DNA from: Desulfomicrobium sp.
GTDB lineage: Bacteria > Desulfobacterota > Desulfovibrionia > Desulfovibrionales > Desulfomicrobiaceae
Length of the DNA: 64,000 nucleotides
Assembly (NCBI GenBank): GCA_040768745.1
Contig: JAXGMI010000001.1
Coordinates: forward strand, 640,001 to 704,000
Reading direction: 5' to 3'
Position numbers and translations under genes: made by a program. Positions 42,760 to 64,000 of this stretch are shown piece by piece (positions within the stretch are counted from its first letter, which is position 1; the number at the start of each line of letters is the position of its first letter). Under the pieces are notes generated by a model. That model had not been told where the DNA came from and ran no database searches. It saw only the letters and a list, made by a program, of their open reading frames with translations.

Positions 42760-43148
42760 GAATCACCTCATGGGGAGTCTCTCTACTCCCAATTTGGTGT
42801 CCAAGAAAACCCTATCCCAGAGGAAACCCGGGGCATGCGGCAGCCGTGGGGTCTGGCATGGCTTGGCGATGAGGGTCCAGCCGTTGTTACAGATGTGTGT
42901 ATCATTTTTTGGATCACAACCTCAACAAAACACTTCACCGTCCCGGCATTTCAACAGTTCTCCCCCGTCAGGTCGTCTGGTCCACCGTCGCATTCTCACG
43001 GGATGCGCGGACGGGCATGATGGACAGGCAACCAAGGGGAGGATCATGGCCCCATGCGTTGTGGCCATTGCCAAAATCCACTATCTGCAATCGGGAATTG
43101 AAGTGCAGTTTTGTGGTGGCCCCTTGGGGAATGTCGGAGTGCAGGGTG

Positions 43149-47765: not shown

Positions 47766-48050
47766 ATGGCTATCGATTTTTTGGTTCACGAAGCTGCGGA
47801 TGGCGTTGGCGTAGTGGTCATTGAAGGCTTGAAAGCCAATCAGGAGATCACCGGATGGGTCATGAAAGAAGACCAGACCGTCAAGATCAAGATTCTCAAT
47901 GACATCCCGATTGGCCACAAGGTGGCCTTGAAGGATTTCGCGGTGGGCGACACCGTCTTCAAATACAATACCGACATCGGCAAGGTCGTGGCCCCCATCA
48001 AGAAAGGCGAACACTTGCACGTCCACAACGTCAAAACAAAGAGGTGGTAA
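47766..48050 (+). CDS. suyA: (R)-sulfolactate sulfo-lyase alpha subunit (UxaA-family SAF domain)
   Basis: IDFLVH..VGVVVIEG..TGWVM..IPIGHK..HVHNVKTKRW closely resembles recalled SuyA sequences; AGGAGG RBS. Confidence 0.82.
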   Translation: MAIDFLVHEAADGVGVVVIEGLKANQEITGWVMKEDQTVKIKILNDIPIGHKVALKDFAVGDTVFKYNTDIGKVVAPIKKGEHLHVHNVKTKRW

Positions 48051-48053
48051 TCC

Positions 48054-49214
48054 ATGCAGACCAAATTTTTCGGATATCGTCGTGAAAATGGCCGTGTCGG
48101 CATCCGCAACCATGTCGTGATCCTGCCCCTGGACGACCTGTCCAACGCCGCCTGCGAGTCCGTGGCCAACAACGTCAAGGGCGTGCTGGCCATCCCCCAC
48201 GCCTACGGCCGCCTGCAGTTCGGCGAGGACCTGGACCTGTATTTCCGCACCCTGATCGGCGCCGGAAGCAACCCCAACGTCGCCGCCGTGGTGGTCATCG
48301 GCATCGAACCCTTGTGGACCAACAAGATCGTCGAAGGCATCGCCGCCACCGGCAAGCCTGTCACAGGCTTCGCCATCGAGAAGAACGGCGACCTGAACAC
48401 CATCTGTGCCGCGTCCCGCAAGGCCAAGGAATACCTGCAGTGGGCCACCGAGCTGCAGCGCGTCGAATGCGACGTGAAGGAACTGTGGGTCTCCTGCAAG
48501 TGCGGCGAGTCCGACACCACTTCCGGCATCGCCACCAACCCCACCGTCGGCAACGCCTACGACAAGCTGTATGAGAAGGGCTCGACTCTGCTCTTCGGTG
48601 AAACCACCGAACTGACCGGCGGCGAGCACCTCGTCAGCGAACGCTGCATCAACGAACAGGTCCGCAAGGACTTCCAGTTCTACTTCGACCGCTACGCCAA
48701 GGTCGTCGACGACCACAAGACCGACGACCTGTCCGACTCCCAGCCCACCAAGGGCAACATCGAGGGCGGCCTGACCACCATTGAGGAGAAGGCCCTGGGC
48801 AACATCCAGAAGATCGGCCGCAAGGCCCCCGTCGTCGGCTGCCTGGAAAAGGCCGTCGCACCGACCGGACCCGGCCTGTGGTTCCAGGACTCCTCCTCCG
48901 CCGCCGCGGAAATGCTCACCCTGTGCTGCGCCTCCGGCTTCGTGGTCCACTTCTTCCCCACGGGCCAGGGCAACATCATCGGCAACCCGATCCTGCCCGT
49001 CATCAAACTGTGCTCCAACCCCCGCACCCTGCGGACCATGGTAGAGCACTTCGACGTCAACGTCTCCGGCCTGCTGCGCCGCGAAATCAACATGGACCAG
49101 GCCGGCGACATGCTCCTGGACATGATGATCCGCACCTGCAACGGCCGCCTGACCTCTTCCGAAGCCCTGGGTCACCGTGAGTTTATCATAACCAGGCTGT
49201 ATGAAAGCGCGTAG
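48054..49214 (+). CDS. suyB: (R)-sulfolactate sulfo-lyase beta subunit (UxaA family)
   Basis: [62 protein letters not shown]. Confidence 0.82.
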
Positions 49215-49270
49215 GGCTTTCCCCCCAGGGCGTCTCTCGCCCTGATGGGAATTTCCCTCTATTTAGCAAA

Positions 49271-49295
49271 GCTGGGGCGGCCGTTCCGCCCCAGC
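49271..49295 (+). terminator. hairpin after suyB
   Basis: GCTGGGGCGG-CCGTT-CCGCCCCAGC; no U tract. Confidence 0.5.
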
Positions 49296-49338
49296 CGCAC
49301 CGAAACAGACGGCATTGAGGCTCGCCGCGGAGAAACGC

Positions 49339-49599
49339 ATGCTCCACGTCCCTGACTCGCTTTACCAGCCCATAGAAGTTACCCCCGAGGGTTTCTTCAG
49401 CTCCCTTGCGAAAATTCTCCAGTCAAAAATCGGCTGCGACCGCGTCAGCCTGACCATCTACGAATCCGCAACCGACTCCCTGGCCTGGTTCGCCAAGGCC
49501 GCGGGCATCTGTGTCACATGCATGGACTCAGGCGCCGCACTCGGGCTCATCTGCGGCGAAATCGGTACTAACAATTCAGTTTTCAAGATAGCACAATAA
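49339..49599 (+). pseudogene. truncated GAF-domain regulator N-terminus
   Basis: GGAGA RBS; FFSSLAKILQSKIGCDRVSLTIYESATDSLAWFAKAAG aligns by eye to the GAF of the 45765-47333 protein. Confidence 0.6.
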
Positions 49600-49686
49600 C
49601 TGCGTATAAATAAGGAGGAGATTCAACTCTGCAATGAAGGATAGCATCGTCATCTTTGTGAAAAAAAAAACGAAAACGGAGGCATT

Positions 49687-50664
49687 ATGCGGTTTAAAGC
49701 GATCTTTTTAAGCACCCTGGTTTTTATTTTCAGCATTGGAACAGTACATGCAGCTGGATTCCCCACTAAACCTATCAATCTTATTGTCCCGTTTGGTGCA
49801 GGAAGCACAACTGACCTCGCAGCACGATCACTAGCCAATGCCGTTAAAGATATGCTCCCTGAACCCATTGTTGTCGTCAACCGTCCTGGAGCATCCGGGA
49901 TTGTAGCGGCAGCATCTGTAGCAAACTCTCAGCCTGATGGCTATACAATGCTCATGTCCAGAGTAAGTTGCAACGGAGCCGTACCAGCACTGAACAAGAA
50001 GACTCCCTACAAGGTTGATGATTTTACATTTGTTGGTATTACTGAATTGAATCCTTTTGTGATTTGTGTACTCGCCGATTCTCCATATAAAACATTGGAC
50101 GACCTGATAAAAGCGATCAAAGAAAATCCTGGCAAGCTGTCCTTCGGCACCTCAGGCGCCCTTTCAATGCTGGACATCGTTGGAATGATGCTTCTTGATG
50201 CCGCAGGCCTTCCTCAGCAAGCCGCAGTCTCAGTACCATATAAGGGCGATGGGGATGCCAAGACCGCTCTTCTTGGGGGGCATATACAATTTATACCCAA
50301 TAACCTTTCACCCATGGCTGATGTCATGAAGGCAGGCACGGTTCGCGCTCTGGCAGTGACAACAAAAGAACGCCTTGAAAACTTTCCAGACGTTCCAACT
50401 GTTGCTGAAGCTGGATATCCCGCTTTGTCCGGTGCAGTGGGATGGTCAGGCTTCTTTGGTCCAAAGGGCATGGATGCAGAAACTGTCAAGGTGTACGCTG
50501 AAATGCTGCAAAAAATGAAAAACGACCCTGAGTGGTTGAAAGCTACCAAACTGCTTGGCGCTATTCCTAACGTATTGACACCTGAGGAGTCGAAAGCCTT
50601 CGTCATGAAACAGTATGCGGACTTTGAAGCGCTCGGCAAGAAATTGAATATTATTGTCCAATAA
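49687..50664 (+). CDS. tctC: tripartite tricarboxylate transporter substrate-binding protein (TctC/Bug)
   Basis: signal peptide; FPTKPINLIVPFGAGSTTD, VNRPGASG, PDGYT, VPYKG, PDVPT. Confidence 0.9.
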   Translation: MRFKAIFLSTLVFIFSIGTVHAAGFPTKPINLIVPFGAGSTTDLAARSLANAVKDMLPEPIVVVNRPGASGIVAAASVANSQPDGYTMLMSRVSCNGAVPALNKKTPYKVDDFTFVGITELNPFVICVLADSPYKTLDDLIKAIKENPGKLSFGTSGALSMLDIVGMMLLDAAGLPQQAAVSVPYKGDGDAKTALLGGHIQFIPNNLSPMADVMKAGTVRALAVTTKERLENFPDVPTVAEAGYPALSGAVGWSGFFGPKGMDAETVKVYAEMLQKMKNDPEWLKATKLLGAIPNVLTPEESKAFVMKQYADFEALGKKLNIIVQ

Positions 50665-50673
50665 AAACATATT

Positions 50674-50703
50674 CATGGCGCACGGATTCATCCGTGCGCC
50701 ATG
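50674..50703 (+). other. 14-bp perfect inverted repeat between tctC and tctB (probable mRNA stabiliser/attenuator)
   Basis: CATGGCGCACGGAT-TC-ATCCGTGCGCCATG. Confidence 0.6.
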
Positions 50704-50752
50704 GGTGCGTTACCTTTGTTTGTGCGACTTTACAAACTAGAAGGAGCGTTTT

Positions 50753-51262
50753 GTGAATAAAACTGTTGATATAACTGTTGGGGCTGTGTTCGCCATCATA
50801 TTTCTCGCAATGCTTTTCATTGTAAACCCTTGGGCAATTGCAGTGCCAACTGCATCAGTCACAGAGGTTGGATCTGTCACGCCGCGTTTTTTTCCAAATT
50901 TAATTTGTATTTTCGCATTTATTTTTAGCATAATTACAATAGTATACAGTTATAAATTTGCTCATTACGATAGTAATGAAAAATTCGATGTTTTAGATTT
51001 TAAAAATAAGGAACATCTCCATACTTTTTTGACACGTTTAGCAGCAATGACGTTATTAGTAATTTTTCCTTTCATTGCTGGCTCCTTAGGCATAATAGTA
51101 GGAGGAGCTATTTTATATATTTTATTTGCACTATTTTGTGGAGAAAAAAATTGGTTAAAAGCTGGTCTTGGTTCTTTAATTTGCATTGCTTTGCTTTACT
51201 ATTTTTTTGTACATATTGCTGATATTCCTATGCCGTTAGGTTTTATAGAAAAGTTTTTGTAA
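50753..51262 (+). CDS. tctB: tripartite tricarboxylate transporter small membrane subunit
   Basis: PRFFP and C-terminal PMPLG motifs, several TM segments, position in operon; very AT-rich. Confidence 0.82.
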   Translation: MNKTVDITVGAVFAIIFLAMLFIVNPWAIAVPTASVTEVGSVTPRFFPNLICIFAFIFSIITIVYSYKFAHYDSNEKFDVLDFKNKEHLHTFLTRLAAMTLLVIFPFIAGSLGIIVGGAILYILFALFCGEKNWLKAGLGSLICIALLYYFFVHIADIPMPLGFIEKFL

Positions 51263-51302
51263 TTTTTAATTATTTATATTGAGGTGCAAAAAGGGGTTTG
51301 AT

Positions 51303-52064
51303 ATGATTGAACAACTTTCTCAAGCTTTTTTTCTAGCATTTACATGGTATAATTTGTTTCTTATGTTTGTAGGAATGCTTGGCGGAGTAATCATAGGTGC
51401 ATTGCCTGGCTTGACTGGAACCATGGCCGTTACCCTGGTATTGCCTTTCACATTTCATATGCAACCGATTCCTGCTTTGTTGCTCCTCGTCGCTATATAC
51501 AAAGGAGCTATGTATGGCGGGTCTATTTCTGCGATTTTAATTAAAACCCCAGGGACAGGAGCCGCTGCGTGCACTGTACTGGACGGCTGGCCGATGGCAC
51601 AACAGGGCAAAGCAGGCAAGGCACTGTTCATGGCGCTTTATGCTTCATGCATCGCAGACTTTATTTCCAATCTTTCCTTAATTTTCTGTGCTGGCCTCAT
51701 CGCCAGTTTTGCATTAAGCTTTGGGCCTCCGGAATTTTTTCAACTTATCTTTTTTTCGCTGACGATTGTAGCCTCACTGTCTGGTGAAAACATGTTCAAA
51801 GGTCTGATTGGTGGTTGTATCGGTCTGCTTTTATCCACTGTTGGCTTGGATATGGTCTATGGGACAGATCGTTATACTTTTGGAAGCGTAGACCTCATGT
51901 CAGGAATCAGTTTTATACCTTTGATTATTGGCTTGTTCGCCATCCCGGAAATCATCAAGGCATGCACCGGAAGGCCACCTCAGAAAGAACACGTAATCAG
52001 TGTTGGCGGCGACAGAGTAACCATGTCCGAGTTCAAACGTTGCTTCAAGACCACCCAAGTTTGA
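51303..52064 (+). pseudogene. tctA: TctA large membrane subunit truncated by IS1634
   Basis: GALPGLT, YGGSISAIL..PG, LDGWPMAQQG; about half the normal length; final QV-stop is encoded by the IS end. Confidence 0.9.
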
Positions 52065-53929
52065 CAGCAATATCGAGCTTATTTGTTTAAAATTAGGATA
52101 TTATCGCTTCGGCGCTAGTTGGAGTTTACACTACATTTCCTTTTTCTCCACGGGTCGGGATCGGCGGGACTCCCAGAGCACGCAGGATCTTTTTCTGCGC
52201 GTCCGTGGGGCGACTAGGAGTCATCAGCGTCTCCTCTCCGACCATGATCTCCCCCATCTTGATCTGACGCAGAAGGCGGATGGCTGTCGGCACAGACACT
52301 GCCATTCCTTTGAGCTTGTTGCGCATCCAGCGCTCTAACTGCAATGCGATCACGCAGACAAACACATGTGCCCTGATTCGCTCCTCAGTCCAGTGATACA
52401 CAGGGCGTAGTTCCAAGGTGCTTTTGAGCGCTCTCCATCCCCGTTCAATTTCAGCAAGCTCTTTGTAATGTTTGATAATGTCTGCGCATGGTGCATCCAT
52501 GTCGGTTGTTTCGAGAAGCAAGACGCCATCGATCTTTTCCTCCCAAGCCCTGCGTTTCCTGTGGGCCTTGACGATGACCTGATCCTGAGTGAGCGCAACT
52601 TGGAACAATGAGAGCAAGCCCTTGTCACGCAGGTAATCCCTGATGCGGTCGTATTGACCCTGTGGGCTTGGTTTGCGTCCCTTGCCTGACCTTGGGGCGA
52701 GTATTTCCCGGATCTTGGCATCGGCCTTGGCAAGGCGCTCCTGGCGGTTCGCCTTGGTTTCGGCTGCGATCTTCGGAGAATAGGCCATAACGAACCGGAC
52801 CCCGCTGCGAACTTCCTCGACAATCTCCTCGTCCTGCCCATTAAACGAGATCTTAAGACGCAACGCCTCGATCACGCTCCGCGCCTCCTCTCCACGACGC
52901 AATGGATGCGCCACGATGAAGCCGAATTCCTCGGCCAGCAACGTCTCGAGATTTTGGTCCGAGAGCATTCCCCTGTCCCCGACAAACACCACGCTGCGTA
53001 GCTTGAAGCGAGTCTTCAGATCCTTCACCACCTCAACCACAGTGGTCTTATCCACGGTGTTCCCCGGAAAGACATGGTGGCAAAGCGGTATGCCGTCCTT
53101 GCCCATGACCACGCCGATGGTGATTTGGCGCCGATCAAACCGGCCATCGCGACTGTATCCGAAGCGCCGAATGTCATCCTCCACCAACGATCGATCCCCG
53201 TCGAACCATGTGGAAGTGATGTCATAGAAGAGCAGGTCGCCTTCCCAATGCGCCTTGGGCATGAAGCGCTTGGCTATCAAGGGCTCCAAAGCTTCCTTCG
53301 CATCCAGCAATCTATCCATGGCGCGCAGGAGATGGTGATAGGCCGGGCGGTGTTGCTCAAATCCAGAAAGCCAGACGCCATCGAGCCAATCCAGTAGCGC
53401 CAGTTTGGAGCACGGATCGCAGAGTCGATTGACGATCAGCAACTTGATCAGTTCAGCATAATCCATCCCGGCCCCGGTCTTTACTCCTGCACGGGCCAGG
53501 GCTTTGGAGAGTCCCAGGATTTCCCAGAGATGTTTGACCGCGTGAACATGTCCGAAATCACGTGCAAACGTGAGGAGCGGCGGTCCAGTCTGAACCGGGT
53601 CTCGACCGAGAGCTTTCTGGAAGCCAGCGATGAGTCTCTCGACCTGGTCTTCGCCCAAACTCTCGATAGTGCCGAGATGAGCCAGGATGCGTGTGCGCGG
53701 AGATCCGCCTTTCTCGGGATCACGGAAAGATTCCGCGATCTGAAGATGGCGGTAGACTTTGTCGCCTCGTTTCTGCTTGGCTATTCGTACAAACATAAAC
53801 TACGAGTAGCATTATTATTCATGAATAGCAATGTTTATGTCTATTTTGTACGTACTACAAATCGGATATCAAAAATCAATATAAGTCATAACTTCGAGAT
53901 GTTAGCCTCAAGTTGTTGTCAAACTTGGG
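52054..53929 (-). mobile_element. IS1634-family element (1876 bp)
   Basis: terminal IRs CCCAAGTTTGACA(G/A)CAA; single 556-aa transposase; no flanking direct repeat. Confidence 0.88.
52126..53796 (-). CDS. IS1634-family DDE transposase
   Basis: NRLCDPCSKL, FYDITSTWF, GYSRD, VGDRGM, IERGWRALKS..LRPVYHW..RIRAHV. Confidence 0.9.
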   Translation of the reverse strand: MFVRIAKQKRGDKVYRHLQIAESFRDPEKGGSPRTRILAHLGTIESLGEDQVERLIAGFQKALGRDPVQTGPPLLTFARDFGHVHAVKHLWEILGLSKALARAGVKTGAGMDYAELIKLLIVNRLCDPCSKLALLDWLDGVWLSGFEQHRPAYHHLLRAMDRLLDAKEALEPLIAKRFMPKAHWEGDLLFYDITSTWFDGDRSLVEDDIRRFGYSRDGRFDRRQITIGVVMGKDGIPLCHHVFPGNTVDKTTVVEVVKDLKTRFKLRSVVFVGDRGMLSDQNLETLLAEEFGFIVAHPLRRGEEARSVIEALRLKISFNGQDEEIVEEVRSGVRFVMAYSPKIAAETKANRQERLAKADAKIREILAPRSGKGRKPSPQGQYDRIRDYLRDKGLLSLFQVALTQDQVIVKAHRKRRAWEEKIDGVLLLETTDMDAPCADIIKHYKELAEIERGWRALKSTLELRPVYHWTEERIRAHVFVCVIALQLERWMRNKLKGMAVSVPTAIRLLRQIKMGEIMVGEETLMTPSRPTDAQKKILRALGVPPIPTRGEKGNVV

Positions 53930-54080
53930 CGTCAACAGTCAGGCCGAGCACAGTTTTACGGCAACATGGAGTACCAGTGGAATATTCACGGATGCGAACG
54001 CTTGCGTCATCCTCATCGGAATTTTGTAGGATTTCAAGAATACGTCCTTTAGCGTTATCCGTCATGAAAACTTTAAACAT
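53919..54080 (-). pseudogene. ErpA/HesB-related Fe-S protein truncated by IS1634 (not in ORF track)
   Basis: AGGAGAG RBS; MFKVFMTDNAKGRILEILQNSDEDDASVRIREYSTGTPCCRKTVLGLTVD then IS-derived AQV-stop. Confidence 0.65.
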
Positions 54081-54105
54081 AGCTAGGCTCTCCTATGATT
54101 TGTAG

Positions 54106-54999
54106 TTAGACGATGATTGTATGCAAGTTGTGCGCATCAAAATACTTCAGAACATTCTTAAGAGCCTCTGGGGAATATCCTGGATACGTAGGCTCTGGCT
54201 TAGACAACGCGGCGTACTTGTTTTTGCCGAATGCATGACAGGGGAGCACATCGACTTCGTCCTTGCAAAACTCTTTCAGCAGAACAGCCAGTCGTTTGAT
54301 GTTTTCTTCTGTGTCATTCAGACCGGGTATCAGCGGGATGCGTATACGATATGGTACGCCGAGACGGACTATTTCTCGTAAGTTTTCAAGGATTAGGCGG
54401 TTGTCAACCCCTGTAACATCCTTGTGCATTTCCGGATCCATATGCTTGATGTCAAACAGCACAAGGTCAGATAATTTAACGAACTCCCGGAATTTTTCTG
54501 TTGGGCACTGTCCGCAGGTATCCAAGCAGACATGATACCCGTGTGAACGGCAGGCGTGCTGCAGTGCCAACAAAAAATTGCCGGCCATGGTCGGTTCGCC
54601 GCCGCAGAAAGTAACCCCACCCCCAGAGTTGAAGTAGAAGAGTTCATCCTTGCAAACGACATTCATCACCTCGTTCACAGTCATTCGTTTGCCAGAAATG
54701 ACTCGCGCCTTGCTCAAGCAAATTGCTTCGCATTGACCACAGTTAACACATTTTATCCTGTCAATCACCGCCTTCCCGTTGGCAATGGCAATAGCTTTTT
54801 CAGGACAAGTTTCGACGCAGAGACCGCACCCTGTGCAGAGATCTTGGAAGAGCATGAGTTGCGGGGACAGGCTCTGTGATTCCGGGTTGCTGCACCATCG
54901 ACATTGCAAGGGGCATCCTTTCAAAAATACCGTGGTCCGCAATCCGGGCCCATCATGCCCGGACATTCGCTGGATGTTGTACACTATTCCTGATTGCAT
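54106..54999 (-). CDS. glycyl-radical enzyme activating enzyme (radical SAM with ferredoxin-like insert)
   Basis: HDGPGLRTTVFLKGCPLQCRWCSNPES; CTGCGLCVETC and CVNCGQCEAIC; GGVTFCGGEP. Confidence 0.95.
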   Translation of the reverse strand: MQSGIVYNIQRMSGHDGPGLRTTVFLKGCPLQCRWCSNPESQSLSPQLMLFQDLCTGCGLCVETCPEKAIAIANGKAVIDRIKCVNCGQCEAICLSKARVISGKRMTVNEVMNVVCKDELFYFNSGGGVTFCGGEPTMAGNFLLALQHACRSHGYHVCLDTCGQCPTEKFREFVKLSDLVLFDIKHMDPEMHKDVTGVDNRLILENLREIVRLGVPYRIRIPLIPGLNDTEENIKRLAVLLKEFCKDEVDVLPCHAFGKNKYAALSKPEPTYPGYSPEALKNVLKYFDAHNLHTIIV

Positions 55000-55030
55000 A
55001 CAGATCACTCTACAATTTCTTCGGTTAAGC

Positions 55031-55059
55031 GCCGGCAAGATGGTTGGCATCCTGCCGGC
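55031..55059 (-). other. hairpin between GRE and activase genes
   Basis: mRNA GCCGGCAGGAUG-CCAAC-CAUCUUGCCGGC (12 bp including one G-U). Confidence 0.55.
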
Positions 55060-56420
55060 TCCGAATCAATAATTTAGTTGTACTCGGTGCGTTTAATGAT
55101 TTCGTTCTGCACGCCTTTATCCAGTCGGGTAAAGTAGGCGCTGAAACCAGCTACCCGTACGACCAGATCCTTGTAGTTTTGAGGCTTCTCCTGTGCATCC
55201 TTAAGTGTATCTGAACTTACACAGTTGAACTGGATGTGGCTGCCGCCAAGGTCAAAGTAAGTTTTCAACAGACTGAGAAGGGTTCGAGCACCAGCCGGTC
55301 CTTCTAGGGCAGAGGGGAGGAACTTCACATTGAAGTGGTTTGAGGCATAATCTACGGTGTCTACTGCTTGGGCGGCGGATTTAATCAAAGCAGTACTGCC
55401 TTCCAGGTCGGTGCCAGGCATGGCAGATACACTACCGTCGGTCAGAGCCACCCCAGCTTTTCGTCCATTGGGCAGCGCACCCATCATGCCGCCAAAGTAG
55501 TTGTGAAAGGACAATGAATAGGCATCAATGAACGCAGTGTGCCCCATGTAGTCAGGACCGTAGCTGCGATAGATTTTGTGCACGTCACGGTAGAATCTGC
55601 GAACAAGGGTGTCGACTTCCGGAATGTCGTTGCCATGCTTGGGAGCTTCAATGCACATGCGATGCACATCTTCGTAGCCCTCAAAGTTGGCCGCAAGAGC
55701 TTCTTTGAGTTGAGCCATGGTCAAGGTTTTGGTGTCGTAGACCAGATGCTTAATAGCCAGTAGACAATTGGAAGCGTCAATCCCACCAGTGCCTATACAC
55801 AATGTCTGTGCATAACGAGCTCCTCCAGCTTCCTCAACCAAACCCTTTTCAAGGCATCCGTCGATGATAGCAGAGCGGAACACGCTAGGTACAACCCATT
55901 CTTTAACAGTGTTACCGATATCTGAACGCAGGCGTTGCATCTTTAGCAAATAATCAGTCTGCTTTATGAACGCAGTATAGAATTCTTCGAAGGTTTGAAA
56001 TTCTTCAGAATTGCCAGATTCAATGCTGATCTGCTTCTTGGTTGTCGGGTCCCATCCGTTGTATAGGGTAAATTCAATGGGCTTAACAAAGTTTGGAAAG
56101 TCTTCCATGATGACAAAAGATCCCTTACCAGCCACCCCGGTACCGACGCAGCCGAAGTTGGCACAGTTTCGGGCATCTTCGAGAGTGATGCCTAATTCAC
56201 CAAAGCGGTTGAAGTGACGTTGAATGACAACATTATTGTTCATGAACTGAGGTTGCCCAGTCCCGCCGCGGACTACTTCGACAGCTTTCTGCAGGTAAGA
56301 CTCCTTCATCTTAGGATGATAGAATAAGCTAATGGTGGGCTGAATATTCTTCATCTGAATTTGGGTGTCCATAATAACTTCTGCATCGGTCTACGGTTTT
56401 TTGGACACGTTTTTGGTTAA

Positions 56421-57311
56421 TCAAGCCGCAACGTTCACGGCCTCTTTCTGGATGGCCCGCACCGCTGCCGGAGTCTTGTAGCCGTGGCGTCCAATGATCC
56501 ATTCCCGGTTGTACGTCTCCTTGAACTCCAAGAGGGCAAGTCGGAGTTCCTCGACCGTATCGAACCGCCGGACCCAGAGCAGGTTTTCCTTGAGCGTGCG
56601 CACGAACCTCTCGGCGATGCCGTTGCCTTGGGGTTCTCTGACGAAAGCAGGCGAACTCCGGATGCCCAGGAAGGAAACCTCCTCTTGAAACACACTGGAA
56701 ACGTACTGGCTACCATTGTCATGTCGCAGGGTCAGGCCCTCTGCCACGGCGGGTCCAAAGGCTCCAAAGCTGTGGCGCACACCTTGGCGAATCGGCTCCA
56801 GGGCTTCAAAGCGCGTCCCGTACTTAGCGGCGTGGATGCCGACACACTCCAGAGAGCAGTGGTCCACGGCCAGGAAGATCGAAGCGTTGCCTTCCTGCAT
56901 GGTCATCGTCGTGGTCATGTCCGTGCCCCACATCTCGTCCACCCGGGCAGTCTTGATCGTCCCGTCATGCGCCTTGGGGCCATGCGGCCTGCCGGGCTTG
57001 CGCACTGCGAGCAGGTTGTTCTCTCTCATGATCCGAAGCGTTCGCAGGGGGGACGTTCTGATGCCCTCAAAACGCAACCTGGCCCACACTTTCCGATAGC
57101 CTTCACCAGTAAAAGGGGAGTTCTGGATGCATGCCACGATGTGCCCGAACAACTCCCCATCACTGTGGAAGCCAATAGGGCCTCGGCGGCTTGGTGTGCC
57201 CTCATTCGCAACCTTGCGTGCATAATGCGTGGACCTGGGGAGATTCCAGACCCGGCAAACCAGCACCAGCCCATACGTCTGACCAGTGGAGGGCGAGGTG
57301 GACCGGCTCAT
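56421..57311 (-). CDS. IS orfB DDE integrase-core transposase
   Basis: WGTDMT, RHDNGSQY, NGIAERFVRTLKE. Confidence 0.9.
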   Translation of the reverse strand: MSRSTSPSTGQTYGLVLVCRVWNLPRSTHYARKVANEGTPSRRGPIGFHSDGELFGHIVACIQNSPFTGEGYRKVWARLRFEGIRTSPLRTLRIMRENNLLAVRKPGRPHGPKAHDGTIKTARVDEMWGTDMTTTMTMQEGNASIFLAVDHCSLECVGIHAAKYGTRFEALEPIRQGVRHSFGAFGPAVAEGLTLRHDNGSQYVSSVFQEEVSFLGIRSSPAFVREPQGNGIAERFVRTLKENLLWVRRFDTVEELRLALLEFKETYNREWIIGRHGYKTPAAVRAIQKEAVNVAA

Positions 57312-57697
57312 TTCCTCGACCTCCGCAACCCCAAAGGGTCTTTTGCCTCCATCATTCGGATCTTCTCGCGGAGCAGTTCTATCTCCATGGTCTGCTCGCC
57401 GATTTTCTCATTGAGGCGCTTGTATTCGGCCTCCTCCGCCGGAGAGCGTTTTTTGAGACTATCCGCGCCACCGGCCAGAAAGGCATCTCTCCATTGTGAG
57501 AGCGTGGCAGCCGTCACGCCGAGTTCCCGACTGAGCGTTTCGATGTCTTCACCACGCAGAAGCCGGAGGACGGCCTCGGTCTTGTGCTGTGCCCAGAATC
57601 GCTTGGGAGTTGCCTTCGTCTCCCCGGTTCCAGTCGGCCTACGGCCTCCCTCCACCGGGGAGACGGCTGAAATATCCTTGTCGCTTTGTTTGCTCAT
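57308..57697 (-). CDS. IS orfA (HTH)
   Basis: ATGA-coupled to orfB; HTH SRELGVTAATLSQWR. Confidence 0.85.
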   Translation of the reverse strand: MSKQSDKDISAVSPVEGGRRPTGTGETKATPKRFWAQHKTEAVLRLLRGEDIETLSRELGVTAATLSQWRDAFLAGGADSLKKRSPAEEAEYKRLNEKIGEQTMEIELLREKIRMMEAKDPLGLRRSRK

Positions 57698-58966
57698 GAA
57701 TCACCTCATGGGGAGTCTCTCTACTCCCAATTTGGTGTCCAAGAAAACCCTATCCCAGAGGACTTCTTCTAACTCTGTGCTTGCGTCTTCACCATTCGCA
57801 TCTAAGCCGCCTATGGTAATGGTCTGGCCAGTGTGCCCCGACAGGGCCAGGGCATAGGCATGTCCTTGATAAACAGCGACTTCGAGATGTTTGACCCACT
57901 GGAACTTAAGCAAGGTGAGCACCTGTTCGCGAGTCAGATTTCCTTCATCGATATCCTTTTTGTAGAAGGGGTACATGTACTGACCATAGCGGCCGGGTGA
58001 GGTGGCGCAACCTGTCTGCTCTATCTGAATGCCCAGATGTGTGAACCAGAAGGATTGAATTGCTTCACGAAAGTTACGAGCAGGGAATTCAGGTACTCTG
58101 CGGCAGATTTCGGCGATTTCAAGCAATTCTGCCTTGTTGGCAGGATCAGATTCCTTGGCTGCGGTCTGTTCGGCCAAGTCTGCGTAACGGTGCGCGTAGG
58201 CAATCACAGCTTTGAGGGCAATGCGCACGGCGCGGTAAAATGCGAATTTTTCCTTGTTTCCAGCTTTTTTCGGCAATGCATTGATCCGTTCATCGACTTC
58301 CCTCAAGATGCCAGAAATGCCCTCATTGAGAACGCGTGCATAGTCTGCCACGCCAGTCCCTGTGGTTATGGAGATGGCATCGTATACCATTCCAGACTTA
58401 AATAAGAAGGATGGATTTTGGCCATACAGATCCTTGAACAACGTGTTTGTTCTGTCGACGGTGGTTTTTCCCTTCCACGCCTTGTAGGTTTTTTTCAGTA
58501 GCTCCTCGGTTTCTTTCGGAATGCTGATTTCGCCCAATGAACTCATTTTGGCCAAATCCATTTCATCTTTAATCCAGTTTACATTCCATTCTGGAAAAGC
58601 ATATACGCCTGCGCGAAAACCACTAATGGTGCCGACGATGGGGTTTCCGTCCAGGAAAATATTTTTTTTGGCTAGCAACCGCTCAAGGAGTCTGGCGCGG
58701 ATTATCACAGGTTCTTCACTGGAGAGCTCGTCATAGACTTCAAGCAGGACCTCCAAGCGCAAAGGGTCCATCTTTTGCGGAGCATCCAACAAGAATCCCT
58801 TAAGGTCTTTAATTCGCTGATCCGCAGTGTTCCAGTTAAGGTAATATCCGGAACATTTTTTTGCACTGGCTTCATTTTCATCCCATAGCTTTTTCATACG
58901 ATCCTCTGGGATAGGGTTTTCTTGGACACCAAATTGGGAGTAGAGAGACTCCCCATGAGGTGATTC

Positions 58967-59356
58967 ATGAGCAAACAAAGCGACAAGGATATTTCAGCCG
59001 TCTCCCCGGTGGAGGGAGGCCGTAGGCCGACTGGAACCGGGGAGACGAAGGCAACTCCCAAGCGATTCTGGGCACAGCACAAGACCGAGGCCGTCCTCCG
59101 GCTTCTGCGTGGTGAAGACATCGAAACGCTCAGTCGGGAACTCGGCGTGACGGCTGCCACGCTCTCACAATGGAGAGATGCCTTTCTGGCCGGTGGCGCG
59201 GATAGTCTCAAAAAACGCTCTCCGGCGGAGGAGGCCGAATACAAGCGCCTCAATGAGAAAATCGGCGAGCAGACCATGGAGATAGAACTGCTCCGCGAGA
59301 AGATCCGAATGATGGAGGCAAAAGACCCTTTGGGGTTGCGGAGGTCGAGGAAATGA
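58967..59356 (+). CDS. IS orfA (HTH)
   Basis: identical to the other copies. Confidence 0.85.
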   Translation: MSKQSDKDISAVSPVEGGRRPTGTGETKATPKRFWAQHKTEAVLRLLRGEDIETLSRELGVTAATLSQWRDAFLAGGADSLKKRSPAEEAEYKRLNEKIGEQTMEIELLREKIRMMEAKDPLGLRRSRK

Positions 59357-60243
59357 GCCGGTCCACCTCGCCCTCCACTGGTCAGACGTATGGGCTGGTG
59401 CTGGTTTGCCGGGTCTGGAATCTCCCCAGGTCCACGCATTATGCACGCAAGGTTGCGAATGAGGGCACACCAAGCCGCCGAGGCCCTATTGGCTTCCACA
59501 GTGATGGGGAGTTGTTCGGGCACATCGTGGCATGCATCCAGAACTCCCCTTTTACTGGTGAAGGCTATCGGAAAGTGTGGGCCAGGTTGCGTTTTGAGGG
59601 CATCAGAACGTCCCCCCTGCGAACGCTTCGGATCATGAGAGAGAACAACCTGCTCGCAGTGCGCAAGCCCGGCAGGCCGCATGGCCCCAAGGCGCATGAC
59701 GGGACGATCAAGACTGCCCGGGTGGACGAGATGTGGGGCACGGACATGACCACGACGATGACCATGCAGGAAGGCAACGCTTCGATCTTCCTGGCCGTGG
59801 ACCACTGCTCTCTGGAGTGTGTCGGCATCCACGCCGCTAAGTACGGGACGCGCTTTGAAGCCCTGGAGCCGATTCGCCAAGGTGTGCGCCACAGCTTTGG
59901 AGCCTTTGGACCCGCCGTGGCAGAGGGCCTGACCCTGCGACATGACAATGGTAGCCAGTACGTTTCCAGTGTGTTTCAAGAGGAGGTTTCCTTCCTGGGC
60001 ATCCGGAGTTCGCCTGCTTTCGTCAGAGAACCCCAAGGCAACGGCATCGCCGAGAGGTTCGTGCGCACGCTCAAGGAAAACCTGCTCTGGGTCCGGCGGT
60101 TCGATACGGTCGAGGAACTCCGACTTGCCCTCTTGGAGTTCAAGGAGACGTACAACCGGGAATGGATCATTGGACGCCACGGCTACAAGACTCCGGCAGC
60201 GGTGCGGGCCATCCAGAAAGAGGCCGTGAACGTTGCGGCTTGA
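59353..60243 (+). CDS. IS orfB DDE integrase-core transposase
   Basis: same protein as copy 2. Confidence 0.9.
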   Translation: MSRSTSPSTGQTYGLVLVCRVWNLPRSTHYARKVANEGTPSRRGPIGFHSDGELFGHIVACIQNSPFTGEGYRKVWARLRFEGIRTSPLRTLRIMRENNLLAVRKPGRPHGPKAHDGTIKTARVDEMWGTDMTTTMTMQEGNASIFLAVDHCSLECVGIHAAKYGTRFEALEPIRQGVRHSFGAFGPAVAEGLTLRHDNGSQYVSSVFQEEVSFLGIRSSPAFVREPQGNGIAERFVRTLKENLLWVRRFDTVEELRLALLEFKETYNREWIIGRHGYKTPAAVRAIQKEAVNVAA

Positions 60244-60287
60244 TTAACCAAAAACGTGTCCAAAAAACCGTAGACCGATACAACGAG

Positions 60288-60296
60288 ACCTCCTCT
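60288..60296 (-). promoter_or_regulatory. orphaned ribosome-binding site of the GRE gene
   Basis: removing IS copy 3 gives AGAGGAGGT-CTCGT-ATGAAAAAG. Confidence 0.85.
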
Positions 60297-60362
60297 AAAA
60301 ATTTAAATTTTACAAAATTACTTCTGCGACGTGGTTGATGCGTTCAAAATTTCACTTTCTGT

Positions 60363-60378
60363 AGCAACTCGTGTGCCT
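60363..60378 (-). promoter_or_regulatory. sigma54 -24/-12 promoter of the GRE operon
   Basis: minus strand AGGCACACGAGTTGCT (GGCAC-N5-TTGCT), about 65 nt upstream of the RBS. Confidence 0.8.
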
Positions 60379-60573
60379 AATTATTTTCTCATTTAAATAC
60401 AAACCGTTATTCATTTTTTGACTTTCCTCATTTTATCTGAATAGAAAACTGTTCTCGAAGCGTTACATCCTTAGCGAACACAAAAATTTAACTATTTGAA
60501 ATACATCGTTTTTATAAAGAAGGTTTATTTGGACACTTGTCGCGAAATCAATACAGTGGTAATTTTTTACATC

Positions 60574-61583
60574 TGCTCGGCACTTTTCAGACCATTCGAA
60601 ACTTGAGATAGGTTTCCCCCTCAACCACGATGAGCTGATGAAAAAGGGACCATTTTCCGAAGAGCAGATGGTGGGCATCCTGCGAGAAGCTGACCGCAGC
60701 CCGGTGGCCCAGGTGGCCAAGAAGCATGGAATCAGCGAGCAGACGATCTATAATGGCGGCAGCGGTTTGCAGGCATGTCCGCCGATGACGTGAAGCGGCT
60801 GCGCCTGCTGGAACAAGAGAACACGCGGCTGAAGAAGATTCTTGCGGAACGGGACCTTGAAATCGAGGTCATGAAGGAGATCGCCGCAAAAAATGGTAGG
60901 CGCACCCGTCCGACGCCTCCAGGTGGCATACGCCAGGAGTCGCGGACTTTCACAACGCAGGGCGTGTGCGCTGTTATCCACTTCCCGGTCGTCGCTTCAC
61001 TACGAGTCACGGCTGGAGGCCCGGGACATGCCGCTGCTGGCGGCTCTGGCAGGTCTGGCTGCGACGTATCCGCGCTTTGGATACCGCCCGGATCAACGTG
61101 TTCATGGAACGTCTGGGTCATGTCATGGGTGCCGACAAGGCGTTCCGTCTGTGGTCCAAGGCCGGGTTGGAAGTGCCCAGGAAGCGGCCTCGGAAACGAG
61201 TGGCGACGTCCAGTCCGAGACCGCAACTGCCGATGGGAGCAAACGAACGGTGGGCGTACGACTATGTCTACGACGCCTGCGCAAACGGTCAACAGATCAA
61301 ATGCCTGACCGTGGTGGACGAATACACGCGTGAATGCCTGGCAATAGACGTTGCCGGGAGCATCAGGTCGAGACGGGTTATCGAGGTGCTGTCCCGCCTG
61401 ATCAGCGAACGAGGAGCCCCTCTCAGCCTGCGTTCTGACAACGGACCGGAGTTCGTGTCGAAGGCGCTGCTCAAATGGGCGGCTCAGGAGTCTCTGGACC
61501 TGGCGCTGATTGGGCCTGGGAAGCCATGGCAAAACGGTTTGAACGAGAGTTTTAACGGCAAATTTCGCGACGAGTGCCTGTCG
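60574..61583 (+). mobile_element. degenerate IS3-family element (different from copies 1-3), frameshifted and 3'-truncated
   Basis: starts TGCTCGGCAC; orfA MKKGPFSEEQMVGILREAD from 60638 with a frameshift; orfB WAYDYV..SDNGPEF..PGKPWQNG..ESFNGKFRDECL breaks off into AT-rich DNA. Confidence 0.85.
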
Positions 61584-61612
61584 AAAATTTTTTGAAAATT
61601 ATGGTGATTAAA

Positions 61613-62640
61613 ATGCTTGTTGAAAATTATCATGACAATGATTTGCAATCACTAATACGTAACGAGCTTTTTCAAATAATTATTGACGAATTGCAAATTG
61701 GATTCGCAATCATCGATACAAACGGAATTTATAAATACATAAATAAATCATATGCTAGTATTCATGGATTAGAAAACAAAGAAAAATATATCGGTAAAAA
61801 AGTAGATGATTTTTTTACATCAGCTAAAAATGGAACACTGAAGGCAATTAAAACACAAAAGAAGGTAATCACCAAAAGTAAATCTATAAATGGAGTTGAA
61901 GGATTAAGCTTTAGATACCCAATTGTTAGTAAAGACAATCGATTTATTTGCTGTATCACAGAGACATTGGCAACAAATTTAAGCAGTAAAAAATTAATTG
62001 AATTTATTGACACAATTAAGTCTCTTCAAAAAAAAGTAAATTATTACCAGTATAAATCTAATAATAGCATAGGAGTTCTTCATACATTCGAAGATATTGT
62101 CACTATAAGTTCTTCTATGGAAGAAATGAAACAACAAGGGCATCGTTTTGCAAGGAGTGCTGAGCCGATCCTTATCTTGGGTGAAAGCGGCACAGGCAAG
62201 GAGCTTGTAGCTCAAGCTTTGCACATGGCCAGCTCGAGGGCAAAGAGAGACTTTGTTGTTGTTAACTGCGCGGCCCTTCCTCGTGATCTCATGGAATCTG
62301 AATTGTTCGGTTATTCAGAAGGTGCTTTTACCGGCTCCCGGACAGGTGGGGTCAGAGGCAAATTTGAGTTGGCCCATCAAGGAACAATCTTCTTAGACGA
62401 AATAGGGGAACTTCCGCTGAACATGCAGTCAAAGTTGCTGCGCGTGTTGGAAAGCGGCGAGATTCAAAAAATCGCCCATTCAAGCCCGGTGTTTTCAGAT
62501 TTTCGCATGATCGCTGCGACCAACAAAAATCTGCAACAGATGGTGCGGGACGGAGCTTTCCGAGAAGATCTTTACCACCGCTTAAGTATTCTTGAGTTAC
62601 GTGTCCCTCCCCTGCGTGAAAGAAAGGAGGATATCCTCCC
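61613..62640 (+). pseudogene. PAS-domain sigma54 activator truncated by IS1182
   Basis: PAS-like N-terminus, GESGTGKE, ESELFGYSEGAFTGS, FREDLYHRL, ends at RERKEDILP; no WPGN motif or HTH. Confidence 0.88.
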
Positions 62641-64000
62641 CAGACTGCTGACAAAGTCACCTCAAAACCCTCGTCAAATGACGGGGGTTTTGTTATGAAA
62701 GCTTACATGTTACGCAGCACAGGACCCAAACAACTGAAGTACGAATTCGTCTGCATCGAGCGCTTGGTTCCCAAAGATCATCTTCTTCGTAAGATCACCA
62801 AGTTCATCGATTTCCGTTTCATCCACGACAAGGTCAAAGACCTGTACTGTCCGGACAACGGCCGGCCGGCTCTTGATCCGACAGTGCTCTTCAAGATGCT
62901 CTTTCTGGGGTATCTGTTCGGCATCCGCAGTGAGCGGCGGCTGATTGAGGAGATCAAGGTCAATGTCGCCTACCGCTGGTTTTTGGGCTTCAGCCTGGAA
63001 GACAAGATTCCCGACGCCTCGACCATCAGCCAGAACCGCCGCCGTCGCTTCAACCAGAGCACGGTCTACCAGGAGATTTTCGACGAGATCGTGGTTCAGG
63101 CCATCCGCCGCAAGATGATCGACGGTCGTACCCTGTACACGGATTCGACCCACCTCAAGGCCAACGCCAACAAGAACAAGTTTGTCGAAGCCGAGGTTGC
63201 CAAGAGCACGCGGGATTACATCGATGATCTGGAGCGGGACGTTGCCCAGGACCGGGCCGACCACGGCAAGAAGGCGTTGAAAGAGAACGATCCGGAACCC
63301 GAAACCAAGACGGTCAAGCAGAGCACGACGGACCCGGAGTCTGGCTACATGCACCGGGACGGCAAGCCCAAGGGGTTCTTCTTTCTGGATCACCGCTCGG
63401 TGGACGGTCTTCATGGCCTGATCACGGATACGTACGTGACGCCAGGCAATGTGCATGACTCGATACCGTATCTTGATCGTCTTGATCGACAGCGCGAACG
63501 ATTTGGTTTTGAAGTGGAGGCGGTTGGACTGGATGCTGGCTACGCGACGACAGGAATCTGCAAAGGGCTTGAGGAGAGAGGGATTTTTGGAGTGGTTGGC
63601 TACCGTCGTTTTGGAAAAAACACGGGCCGCTTCAGACGCAAGGATTTTTTCTACGACGACTCAGTGGATTGCTACGTCTGCCCTGCAAACTGCCTTTTGA
63701 GTTACCGAACCACCAACCGGGCGGGTTACCGGGAATACGCCTCGGATCCCAAGATTTGCAAAGCATGTCAGCTTCTTGAGAGATGCACGACCAGCAAGAT
63801 ATGCCGACGGGTCATAGCGCGCCACGTATGGGAAGATAGTCGGGAACGCATCGACTCCAACCGGCTGACGGAGCGTGGCAAGGCCATCTATGCCCGACGC
63901 AAGGAAACGGTTGAACGCAGCTTTGCCGACTGCAAGGAACTGCATGGGCATCGTTACGCCCGGATGCGTGGTCTCTCGAAGGTCTTGGAGCAGTGCCTGC
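62641..64000 (+). mobile_element. IS1182-family element, runs off the window
   Basis: begins (C)AGACTGCTGACAAA; hairpin 62663-62692; transposase from 62707. Confidence 0.85.
62707..64000 (+). CDS. IS1182-family transposase (3' end outside window)
   Basis: LVPKDHLLRKI..GRPALDPTVLFKMLFLGYLFGIRSERRL..AYRWFLG..DSTHLKANA..RKETVERSFAD. Confidence 0.9.
   Translation, partial: MLRSTGPKQLKYEFVCIERLVPKDHLLRKITKFIDFRFIHDKVKDLYCPDNGRPALDPTVLFKMLFLGYLFGIRSERRLIEEIKVNVAYRWFLGFSLEDKIPDASTISQNRRRRFNQSTVYQEIFDEIVVQAIRRKMIDGRTLYTDSTHLKANANKNKFVEAEVAKSTRDYIDDLERDVAQDRADHGKKALKENDPEPETKTVKQSTTDPESGYMHRDGKPKGFFFLDHRSVDGLHGLITDTYVTPGNVHDSIPYLDRLDRQRERFGFEVEAVGLDAGYATTGICKGLEERGIFGVVGYRRFGKNTGRFRRKDFFYDDSVDCYVCPANCLLSYRTTNRAGYREYASDPKICKACQLLERCTTSKICRRVIARHVWEDSRERIDSNRLTERGKAIYARRKETVERSFADCKELHGHRYARMRGLSKVLEQCL

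What the first reader, a model, noticed from the sequence alone, without database searches (positions are those of the whole stretch)
53919..62640. Reconstructable glycyl-radical-enzyme system of unassigned class (FGCVG Cys loop) under sigma54/PAS control
Seen: removing two ISs restores an uninterrupted 812-aa GRE (Cys455 in RNCANFGCVGTG, Gly789 in RVAGFS), followed by an activase with two extra CxxCxxCxxxC motifs and an ErpA-like gene, preceded by a sigma54 promoter and a divergent PAS activator. Established: PFL has a Cys-Cys pair; eliminases (CutC, HypD, diol dehydratases, IslA, HpsG) and HpdB have Glu two residues after the Cys. Here that position is Gly, and no small Fe-S subunit or microcompartment genes are visible. 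Inference: neither PFL nor a standard eliminase; closest in style to Glu-less arylacetate decarboxylases (IAD, PhdB, AAD-like) or a new radical chemistry with unknown substrate.
Basis: partly seen in the sequence, partly recalled or inferred. Interest (0 to 1): 0.8.

Follow-up and report, generated by a model that had tools for sequence, protein, structure and literature searches.

The report
Broken operon for unstudied radical enzyme
This is a transposon-wrecked copy of a widespread gene set for an oxygen-sensitive radical enzyme whose reaction has not been determined; its nearest studied relative is the toluene-making enzyme PhdB, so intact copies in common gut and environmental sulfate reducers are good candidates for a new decarboxylation reaction.

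Summary
Only one IS lies in the coding sequence; reading across it gives 812 aa with Cys455 and Gly789. The second IS separates RBS from ATG. The locus is a relic. The activator is split by IS1182 and erpA is cut by IS1634. The rest of the operon (dctP stub, dctQ, dctM) lies about 850 kb away beside another IS1634 copy.

The protein belongs to a large uncharacterised clade: 67% identical to probable DVU2272, with members in D. piger and Bilophila. None of 120 homologues has the Cys-loop Glu; Cys297 is invariant. No solved GRE is closer than about 33%. Trees place PhdB-fingerprint proteins (37-38% identical) in the same 100/100 clade. Grouping with IAD-, AAD-like or eliminase rows is rejected. 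IAD is not Glu-less.

Best reading (0.45): a radical decarboxylase of an imported substituted acetate. It is not PhdB itself, since Gln484, Trp495 and His327 are not conserved. The scan noted this clade before on other DNA (e1-3040784).

The parts
57763..58897 (-). GRE 5' part (codons 1-378), starts ATG AAA AAG; PF02901
55074..56377 (-). GRE 3' part (codons 379-812 plus stop) with the Cys loop (Cys455) and Gly loop (Gly789); PF02901 and PF01228
56382..57762 (-). IS3-family element, copy 1, inside the GRE ORF, 4-bp target repeat; 10 near-full copies in the genome
   Evidence: one junction is bridged by a contig of run X11
58902..60282 (+). IS3-family element, copy 2, between the RBS and the GRE start codon, 4-bp target repeat
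60289..60295 (-). GAGGAGG ribosome-binding site, now separated from the ATG by IS copy 2
60364..60378 (-). sigma54 -24/-12 site (AGGCAC-N5-TTGC)
   Evidence: not above chance alone; 51 of 71 related loci against 1.8% of shuffles
54106..54999 (-). GRE activating enzyme, apparently intact (about 297 aa from the ATG matching L020; the ORF can start at 55050); radical-SAM motif plus two ferredoxin motifs
53930..54080 (-). 5' half of an ErpA-related gene, cut by IS1634
52054..53929 (-). IS1634 copy marking a rearrangement breakpoint. Its left flank (tctA) continues beside the copy at G000:C1:1543844-1545719, whose other flank carries the rest of the GRE operon
60567..61585 (+). truncated, frameshifted IS3-family element between promoter and activator; boundaries approximate; single copy in the genome
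61604..62639 (+). 5' part of the divergent PAS / sigma54 enhancer-binding protein; AAA+ end and HTH lie beyond IS1182, outside the window
62640..64000 (+). IS1182 inserted in the activator gene (runs past the window end)

Best explanation
Shown: this is an IS-inactivated copy of a module made of a divergent PAS-sigma54 activator, GRE, activase, ErpA-like protein and TRAP transporter (dctPQM). The GRE belongs to the DVU2272-like clade, whose nearest characterised relative among those tested is phenylacetate decarboxylase PhdB. Inferred mechanism for intact copies: the activator senses a small imported molecule and switches on the operon; the activase puts the radical on Gly789, which passes it to Cys455. 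With Gly at Cys+2, the Cys-loop backbone anion hole is free to hold a substrate carboxylate, as in BSS and MASS. The thiyl radical then decarboxylates a substituted acetate (X-CH2-COO- to X-CH3 plus CO2), with Tyr665 (PhdB Tyr691) and His355 or Cys297 as proton or H-bond partners, and the product leaves the cell. X is probably aryl or heteroaryl in this TRAP-linked subclade but not phenyl; other subclades probably use other substrates. That this genome's copy is non-functional I put at about 0.9.
For: Careful tree: the family plus PhdB-fingerprint P0432 form a 100/100 clade apart from IAD-type, AAD-like, HypD, CutC, IslA-like and diol-dehydratase-like rows (same split with 124 and 35 rows). 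AU tests reject family+IAD (p 2.4e-6), family+AAD-like (1.6e-5) and family+eliminases (4.3e-5). P0432, P0454 and P0455 carry 8 of 8 PhdB-numbered residues at the published positions. Identity to them is 37-38%, against 30-34% for the other reference rows. Tyr691 aligns to Tyr665 and Val693 to Leu667. A Cys-loop oxyanion hole binds a fumarate carboxylate in BSS and MASS (PMC12358834). The modelled DctP of the nearest intact locus L020 ranks aromatic-acid binders first (cinnamate, coumarate, ferulate, 4-hydroxyphenylacetate complexes; 19-26% identity). Recurrent neighbours in 80 loci are importers, exporters, regulators and unknown-function genes; the only recurrent enzymes seen were a nitroreductase (7 of 80) and an aldehyde dehydrogenase (3 of 80).
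Against: Three PhdB residues needed for full activity are not conserved: Gln484 is Gly457, Trp495 is Met469, His327 is Ala298. The Tyr691 position is Phe in 54 of 120 homologues, although Y691F kills PhdB. 5 of 8 cognate DctPs, including L020's, lack the Arg found at that position in 4N6D and 4OVT; its role in carboxylate binding is recalled, not tested. The DVU2272 subclade has an APC amino-acid permease (18 of 80 loci) rather than an aromatic-acid carrier. Several uncharacterised lineages lie between the family and PhdB, and the PhdB branch is long (1.05). HPAD, BSS/MASS and PFL were not in the trees. The DctP fold match is at low identity and shows no ligand. No active-site coordinates could be inspected, so pocket assignments rest on alignments.
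Confidence: 0.45

Rival explanations
1. A Glu-independent eliminase or lyase (C-N, C-S or C-O) acting on an amine, amino acid or neutral molecule, using His355, Cys297 or Glu470 as the acid/base in place of the CxE glutamate.
For: His355 in 119 of 120, Cys297 in 120 of 120, Glu/Asp470 in 117 of 120. Cys297 aligns with glycerol dehydratase His281. APC permease in 18 of 80 loci, TauE exporter in 21 of 80. Arg-less DctP in 5 of 8. The best PDB hits by sequence and fold are eliminases, though nearly tied.
Against: All characterised eliminases and isomerases keep CxE, whereas 0 of 120 do here. Grouping with eliminases is rejected. An aldehyde dehydrogenase was found in only 3 of 80 loci and no BMC gene among the 40 neighbour representatives scanned. 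The beta1 and beta8 positions that carry the sulfonate-binding Arg in IslA/HpsG appear by alignment to be Ser/Thr181 and Tyr/Phe665, which disfavours sulfonates. Glu470 aligns with PhdB-type Glu496, next to the pocket Trp495, so it may point away from the substrate.
Confidence: 0.2
2. A two-cysteine redox GRE: Cys455 starts radical chemistry, Cys297 forms a disulfide to reduce the substrate (RNR-like), and the co-encoded ErpA-like or C_GCAxxG_C_C proteins re-reduce it.
For: Cys297 is invariant (120 of 120) and kept in sister rows P0247-P0250. An ErpA-related gene was found in about 49 of 80 loci (automatic clustering) and C_GCAxxG_C_C in 6 of 80; both kinds are present in the displaced half of this locus.
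Against: The Cys297-Cys455 distance could not be measured. IAD also has a second active-site Cys (Cys223) at the far end of the substrate, with no redox role described in the section read. ErpA-like proteins may simply serve Fe-S assembly on the activase. The PhdB-type rows lack this Cys.
Confidence: 0.12
3. A fumarate-adding (X-succinate synthase-like) or other C-C-forming enzyme.
For: A small residue at Cys+2, as in BSS (Ser); Ser in 43 of 120 homologues.
Against: The fumarate-binding Arg at Cys+15 (BSS Arg508, MASS Arg492) corresponds by count to Glu470. BSS and MASS are the weakest non-PFL full-length matches (390-422 bits against 451-595 for eliminases, isomerases and AAD). No small Fe-S subunit was found among the neighbour representatives scanned, and no beta-oxidation genes recur.
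Confidence: 0.05
4. Pyruvate formate-lyase, as DVU2272 is annotated and modelled in print.
For: DVU2272 is called a PFL and given a role in pyruvate metabolism (PMC4641369; PMC10920352).
Against: There is no Cys-Cys pair: Val follows Cys455 in 119 of 120, and the review says PFL and TdcE have two cysteines. Intact homologues score 69-83 bits on TIGR01255 against a cut-off of 994. PFL structures are the weakest PFL-like fold matches (Z 34 against 39-47). The paralogue DVU2824, also called PFL in those papers, is recalled to be the isethionate sulfite-lyase IseG.
Confidence: 0.03

Closest known systems
DVU2275 / DVU2272-DVU2269 sigma54 regulon of Desulfovibrio (Nitratidesulfovibrio) vulgaris Hildenborough (PMC4641369)
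   Same: 67% identity over 807 aa to P0191 (AAS96745.1, 817 aa; computed 91.25 kDa against 91.2 kDa tabulated for DVU_2272). Same layout of divergent activator, sigma54 promoter, GRE and activase. Same invariant Cys297, His355 and Glu470.
   Different: DVU2272 has GCVS and its subclade goes with APC, TauE and DUF4125 genes. This copy has GCVG, belongs to the P0001-P0004/L020 subclade with a TRAP transporter, and is broken. No biochemical function for DVU2272 was found in the searches made.
Phenylacetate decarboxylase PhdB/PAD (PMC7079210)
   Same: Same 100/100 clade. No Cys-loop Glu. Tyr691 aligns to Tyr665, Val693 to Leu667 and Glu496 to Glu470, and the xHF beta9 motif is shared. Same Cys-to-Gly spacing (333 against 334).
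   Different: 37-38% identity. Gln484 is Gly, Trp495 is Met, His327 is Ala, Ser689 is Asp. The invariant Cys297 and His355 are absent from PhdB-type rows.
Arylacetate decarboxylase AAD (PDB 7E7L)
   Same: No Cys-loop Glu (GCVL), similar length, no small subunit.
   Different: Cys+2 is Leu and the beta6, beta8 and beta9 residues differ. 30-31% identity for the P0001 model. Grouping with the AAD-like row P0351 (best PDB hit 7E7L) is rejected.
IAD and HPAD (CxE decarboxylases)
   Same: GRE fold; among the higher NCBIfam scores for intact homologues (IAD 472-486 bits).
   Different: Both have CxE and length extensions. Scores are far below the cut-offs of 1100 and 1150. Grouping with IAD is rejected; HPAD was not in the tree.
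GRE 1,2-eliminases and isomerases (HypD 6VXC, GD 1R8W, PD 5I2G/9RCO, CutC, IslA, HpsG, YbiW, PflD)
   Same: Best structural matches for the P0001 model: TM about 0.9, Z 43-47, 27-33% identity.
   Different: All have CxE. GD His164 aligns to Thr/Ser181 and His281 to Cys297. Grouping is rejected.

Membership tests
PFL-like glycyl radical enzymes (PF02901/PF01228) | Gly-loop fingerprint RVxG[FWY]x6-8[FL]x4Qx2[IV]x2R | tested here: met
   motif as given; matched by the C-terminus
PFL-like glycyl radical enzymes (PF02901/PF01228) | Cys loop and 10-stranded barrel fold | tested here: met
   Cys455; model of intact homologue P0001 (74% identical, pLDDT 90) matches GREs at TM about 0.9
PFL-like glycyl radical enzymes (PF02901/PF01228) | cognate radical-SAM activase | tested here: met
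   TIGR02494 342.6 bits, cut-off 174
PFL-like glycyl radical enzymes (PF02901/PF01228) | intact, expressible gene in this genome | tested here: not met
   IS in the ORF, IS between RBS and ATG, activator split
PFL-like glycyl radical enzymes (PF02901/PF01228) | glycyl radical by EPR and turnover | not testable with these tools
   needs purified protein
DVU2272-like clade | over 60% identity, shared invariant residues, sigma54-activator-GRE-activase layout | tested here: met
Pyruvate formate-lyase / TdcE | Cys-Cys pair in the Cys loop | tested here: not met
   CV in 119 of 120, CA in 1; TIGR01255 far below cut-off
1,2-eliminases and isomerases | CxE motif | tested here: not met
   Cys+2 is G 55, S 43, A 12, T 10 of 120
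1,2-eliminases and isomerases | NCBIfam cut-offs for HypD, CutC, HpsG, HpfG | tested here: not met
   intact homologues score 380-501 bits against cut-offs of 1000-1100
IAD / HPAD | CxE motif and family cut-off | tested here: not met
   AU p 2.4e-6 for IAD
AAD | one clade with AAD-like proteins and matching Cys loop (GCVL) | tested here: not met
PhdB / PAD | CxQ (Gln484), Trp495, His327 | tested here: not met
   Gly457, Met469, Ala298
PhdB / PAD | Tyr691 | tested here: met
   Tyr665 in this protein; Tyr in 66 and Phe in 54 of 120 homologues
PhdB / PAD | shared ancestry to the exclusion of the other characterised GREs | tested here: inconclusive
   100/100 clade against IAD-, AAD-like, HypD, CutC, IslA-like and PD-like rows; HPAD, BSS/MASS, PFL, YbiW/PflD were not in the tree
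PhdB / PAD | phenylacetate to toluene activity | not testable with these tools
   assay needed
X-succinate synthases | fumarate-binding Arg at Cys+15 | tested here: not met
   Glu470 by count; register by structure not checked
X-succinate synthases | small Fe-S subunit genes in the operon | tested here: inconclusive
   none among 40 neighbour representatives; ORFs under 70 aa and singleton genes were not annotated

The most novel reading that the evidence does not exclude
The DVU2272 clade, with the sister lineages P0247-P0258, is a large unexplored branch of glycyl radical enzymes rooted next to PhdB. It uses an invariant second cysteine (Cys297) and His355 for a reaction type not yet described, such as reductive cleavage through a Cys455/Cys297 pair, and it runs in common gut sulfate reducers (D. 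piger, Bilophila wadsworthia) where it has been read as pyruvate formate-lyase.
Probability: 0.2. Interest if true: 0.8.

Novelty: new variant of a known kind. Interest (0 to 1): 0.5.

Why it matters
The 2026 GRE review lists four decarboxylases, none from this clade in the sections read, and says whole clades lack experimental validation. This clade has 90%-identity clusters of 883 (D. piger), 872 (B. wadsworthia) and 779 members, and a member in the model strain D. vulgaris that flux models treat as PFL. If it is a decarboxylase, gut and digester sulfate reducers make an unrecognised small product, possibly volatile, and their PFL annotation is wrong. The link to PhdB gives a concrete assay direction. 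The copy in this window is itself only a decayed operon; its added value is the reconstructed synteny with a TRAP transporter.

Tried and rejected
(1) SuyAB-like dehydratase genes (47766-49214) and tctCBA (49687-52053) as context clues. Rejected: tctA was joined to the GRE operon by an IS1634 rearrangement; its 3' half and an Ldh_2 gene lie at G000:C1:1540283-1543843.
(2) Glu470 as a charge-reversed BSS Arg508 pointing to an amino-acid substrate. Attractive by count, but alignment pairs Met469 with PhdB Trp495, IAD His514 and GD Asp447, so Glu470 may face away from the pocket. Kept only as a rival.
(3) Search for an IS-free allele. No joint skipping the IS in four runs, but cover was fragmentary, so nothing is shown either way. 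No RNA holder was listed.
(4) Relatives of the genome: 0 of 24 same-genus genomes searched had a clade member (best hits 38% or less). One same-order genome, G036, had one at 65%. This means not found in those searched.
(5) Plasmid search: best hit 33%.
(6) Literature. Searches found no biochemical characterisation of the clade. The D. vulgaris RB-TnSeq paper has no main-text mention; its supplements were not read and may hold a fitness phenotype. Most subscription papers are outside the library. PMC12583861 (DUF4125) and PMC13759103 gave no substrate clue.
(7) Permease and NMT1-type binding-protein searches gave only weak generic hits.
(8) The sigma70 scan was uninformative.
(9) A careful 35-row tree did not finish; a 19-row careful tree was used instead. 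P0251 (a chimeric-looking row) and rows under 700 aa were left out of the trees.
(10) Complex prediction and the protein atlas were not used.
Full report
OBSERVATION. The window is G000:C1:640001-704000 of a 3.09-Mb genome at 60% GC. Two 1381-nt IS3-family copies lie at 56382-57762 and 58902-60282, inverted and one base apart, each with a 4-bp target repeat. Reading the minus strand across copy 1 gives an 812-aa ORF with Cys455 (RNCANFGCVGTG) and Gly789 (RVAGFS). Copy 2 lies between the GAGGAGG RBS and the ATG, not in the ORF. Both pieces are PF02901, and the 3' piece also has PF01228. The activase is intact, with two extra ferredoxin motifs; such motifs are common in GRE activases. The sigma54 site is a chance-level match in the window but recurs upstream in 51 of 71 related loci, against 1.8% of shuffles.

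THE LOCUS IS A RELIC. IS1182 splits the activator (481 aa when read across; HTH outside the window). A truncated IS3-family element sits between promoter and activator. IS1634 (52054-53929) cuts erpA and has no matching target repeat on its right. The 6 bases on its left recur beside the copy at C1:1543844-1545719, where tctA continues. On the other side of that copy lie the last 30 codons of dctP (53% to L020 DctP), dctQ, dctM (76% to L020), a second erpA-like gene, C_GCAxxG_C_C, usp, an IS, a frameshifted DUF4037 and DUF4125. L020, the nearest intact locus (GRE about 74-75% identical), reads activator / GRE-activase-erpA-dctP-dctQ-dctM. I infer an inversion between the two IS1634 copies plus an adjacent deletion of the erpA 3' half and most of dctP. 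The tct and suyAB-like genes next to the finding are therefore not part of the system. A contig from run X11, not flagged as a possible source, bridges one junction of the in-gene IS (57686-58042), so the insertion is not peculiar to this assembly. No IS-free joint was seen in 4 runs of patchy cover.

FAMILY. A search with the 3' piece returned 1269 proteins at E <= 1e-50. The best 120 are about 57-74% identical over the whole protein and mostly 800-830 aa. They include D. piger, B. wadsworthia, D. desulfuricans, Maridesulfovibrio and D. vulgaris proteins. P0191 (AAS96745.1) is 67% identical; its computed mass of 91.25 kDa fits DVU_2272 (91.2) and not DVU_2824 (93.9). This is an inference, not a read-out of the locus tag. 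DVU2272 is in print as a putative PFL under the sigma54 activator DVU2275. In the 120 hits, Cys+2 is G 55, S 43, A 12, T 10 and never E. Cys297 is 120 of 120, His355 119, Glu/Asp470 117, His726 120, and position 665 is Tyr 66 / Phe 54. Subclades differ at other candidate pocket positions, which suggests shared chemistry on different substrates. In 80 loci (79 plus L019; many cut by contig ends; kin not independent; automatic clustering) the neighbours were: sigma54 activator 54, ErpA-like about 49, DUF4125 23, TauE 21, APC permease 18, DUF169 14, DctM 9, DctP 8, nitroreductase 7, MFS 6, NMT1-type ABC binding protein 6. An aldehyde dehydrogenase was seen in 3 loci. No BMC or small Fe-S subunit family appeared among the 40 representatives scanned; singleton genes were not annotated. 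None of 24 same-genus genomes searched had a member. With the low GC of the genes (activase 49%, activator 39%), this suggests acquisition from outside the genus.

COMPARISON WITH KNOWN ENZYMES. No PDB GRE stands out. Profile scores run from 390 to 595 bits for non-PFL GREs. The model of P0001 (pLDDT 90) matches eliminases, isomerases and decarboxylases at 24-33% identity, with Z 39-47 against 34 for PFL. Three intact homologues fall below every GRE cut-off in NCBIfam. The exhaustive profile search returned sister lineages, two of them with a CVQ loop (P0253, P0265). P0265 matches PhdB numbering at a constant offset for 7 residues; its His is one position off. Its relatives P0432, P0454 and P0455 are 839 aa with His327, Cys482, Gln484, Trp495, Ser689, Tyr691, Val693 and Gly815 at the published positions. 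P0454 and P0455 also have Ala132, one of the two residues reported there, and a mass of 95.7 kDa against 95.6 reported. I treat them as PhdB-type. In the careful 19-row tree the family, P0248, P0252, P0254 and the PhdB-type pair form a 100/100 clade; the 124- and 35-row quick trees agree. AU tests reject holding the family with IAD-type P0322 (above the IAD cut-off), with AAD-like P0351 or with eliminase rows. These groups were named after earlier trees had been seen, and HPAD, BSS/MASS, YbiW/PflD and PFL were not included. The protein is 37-38% identical to PhdB-type rows and keeps Tyr691 (Tyr665), but not Gln484, Trp495 or His327. It is related to PhdB but fails membership.

MECHANISM. Shown: GRE motifs, activase, conserved sigma54 design, transporter synteny, clade placement and gene breakage. 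From established knowledge: activase to Gly radical to Cys thiyl, and the Cys-loop oxyanion hole binds a substrate carboxylate in BSS and MASS, where Cys+2 is small. Inferred: the clade decarboxylates an imported substituted acetate and exports the product (0.45). In favour are the PhdB kinship, the free anion hole, Tyr665, an import/export-only neighbourhood, and a cognate DctP whose model ranks aromatic-acid binders first (19-26% identity, so weak). Against are the lost PhdB residues, Phe at 665 in 54 of 120, the missing Arg in 5 of 8 DctPs including L020's (the role of that Arg is recalled), and the amino-acid permease of the DVU2272 subclade. Rivals: Glu-independent eliminase 0.2, two-cysteine redox chemistry 0.12, fumarate addition 0.05, PFL 0.03; the remainder is unallocated. 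The active-site roles of GD His281, Asp447 and Tyr640 are recalled.

PAPERS SEEN. PMC13450708: outline, passages and sections 5.1, 5.4, 5.5, 5.6 and 7. PMC7079210: passages and the mutagenesis section. PMC13232127: passages and one results section. PMC4641369: passages and one section. PMC10920352, PMC6373464, PMC6386719, PMC12358834, PMC12583861 and PMC13759103: passages only. PMC10102598: term search with no hits. No supplements were read; those of PMC10102598 may bear on function. 'Uncharacterised' rests on searches of an open-access library.

VERDICT. A real, IS-destroyed member of a widespread, functionally unassigned GRE clade. It was already noted by this scan on another genome (e1-3040784) and is in print under a doubtful PFL label. 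New variant of a known kind; interest 0.5.

Noticed in passing
window 47766-52053 and G000:C1:1540283-1543843: Split SAF plus GD_AH (UxaA/SuyAB-like) genes, tctCBA and an Ldh_2-family dehydrogenase were one module before the IS1634 rearrangement; this resembles sulfolactate or sugar-acid use (label recalled). tctA is split.
   Followed up: partly
window 52054-53929 and G000:C1:1543844-1545719: The two IS1634 copies appear to bound an inversion of about 850 kb; the genome holds 7 near-full IS1634, 10 near-full copies of the IS3-type element and 8 IS1182.
   Followed up: partly
G000:C3:52650-54992 (L001): A second, intact 786-aa GRE; HypD-like (970 bits on 647 residues, cut-off 1100), with similar proteins in many same-genus genomes.
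   Followed up: partly
P0428 cluster: Proteins 78% identical to PhdB-type P0265 occur in Faecalicatena contorta and Eubacterium sp. (67 members): possible phenylacetate decarboxylases in cultured gut Firmicutes. Active-site residues were not checked.
   Followed up: no
P0436: A 1228-aa PhdB-type GRE listed with solute-binding-protein Pfam domains (PF13416, PF01547): a possible fusion or gene-calling artefact.
   Followed up: no
L020, L031, L040, L047, L070, L091, L092, L094: An orthologous DctP group travels with this GRE clade across distant members; 5 of 8 lack the canonical Arg.
   Followed up: partly
L033 and L072; L029 and L079; L058 and L088: Several genomes carry two or more clade members from different subclades with different transporters, consistent with different substrates.
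   Followed up: no
window 41446-42824: A further copy of the IS3-type element with small deletions (99.8% identical).
   Followed up: no
window 33740-35353: An S24-type HTH repressor-like ORF and a UmuD/LexA-like ORF in a low-GC patch (labels from sequence appearance only).
   Followed up: no
window 43515-44984: A 489-aa ORF that looks like a tyrosine-phosphatase domain fused to an ADP-ribosylglycohydrolase domain (motifs recalled, not scanned).
   Followed up: no
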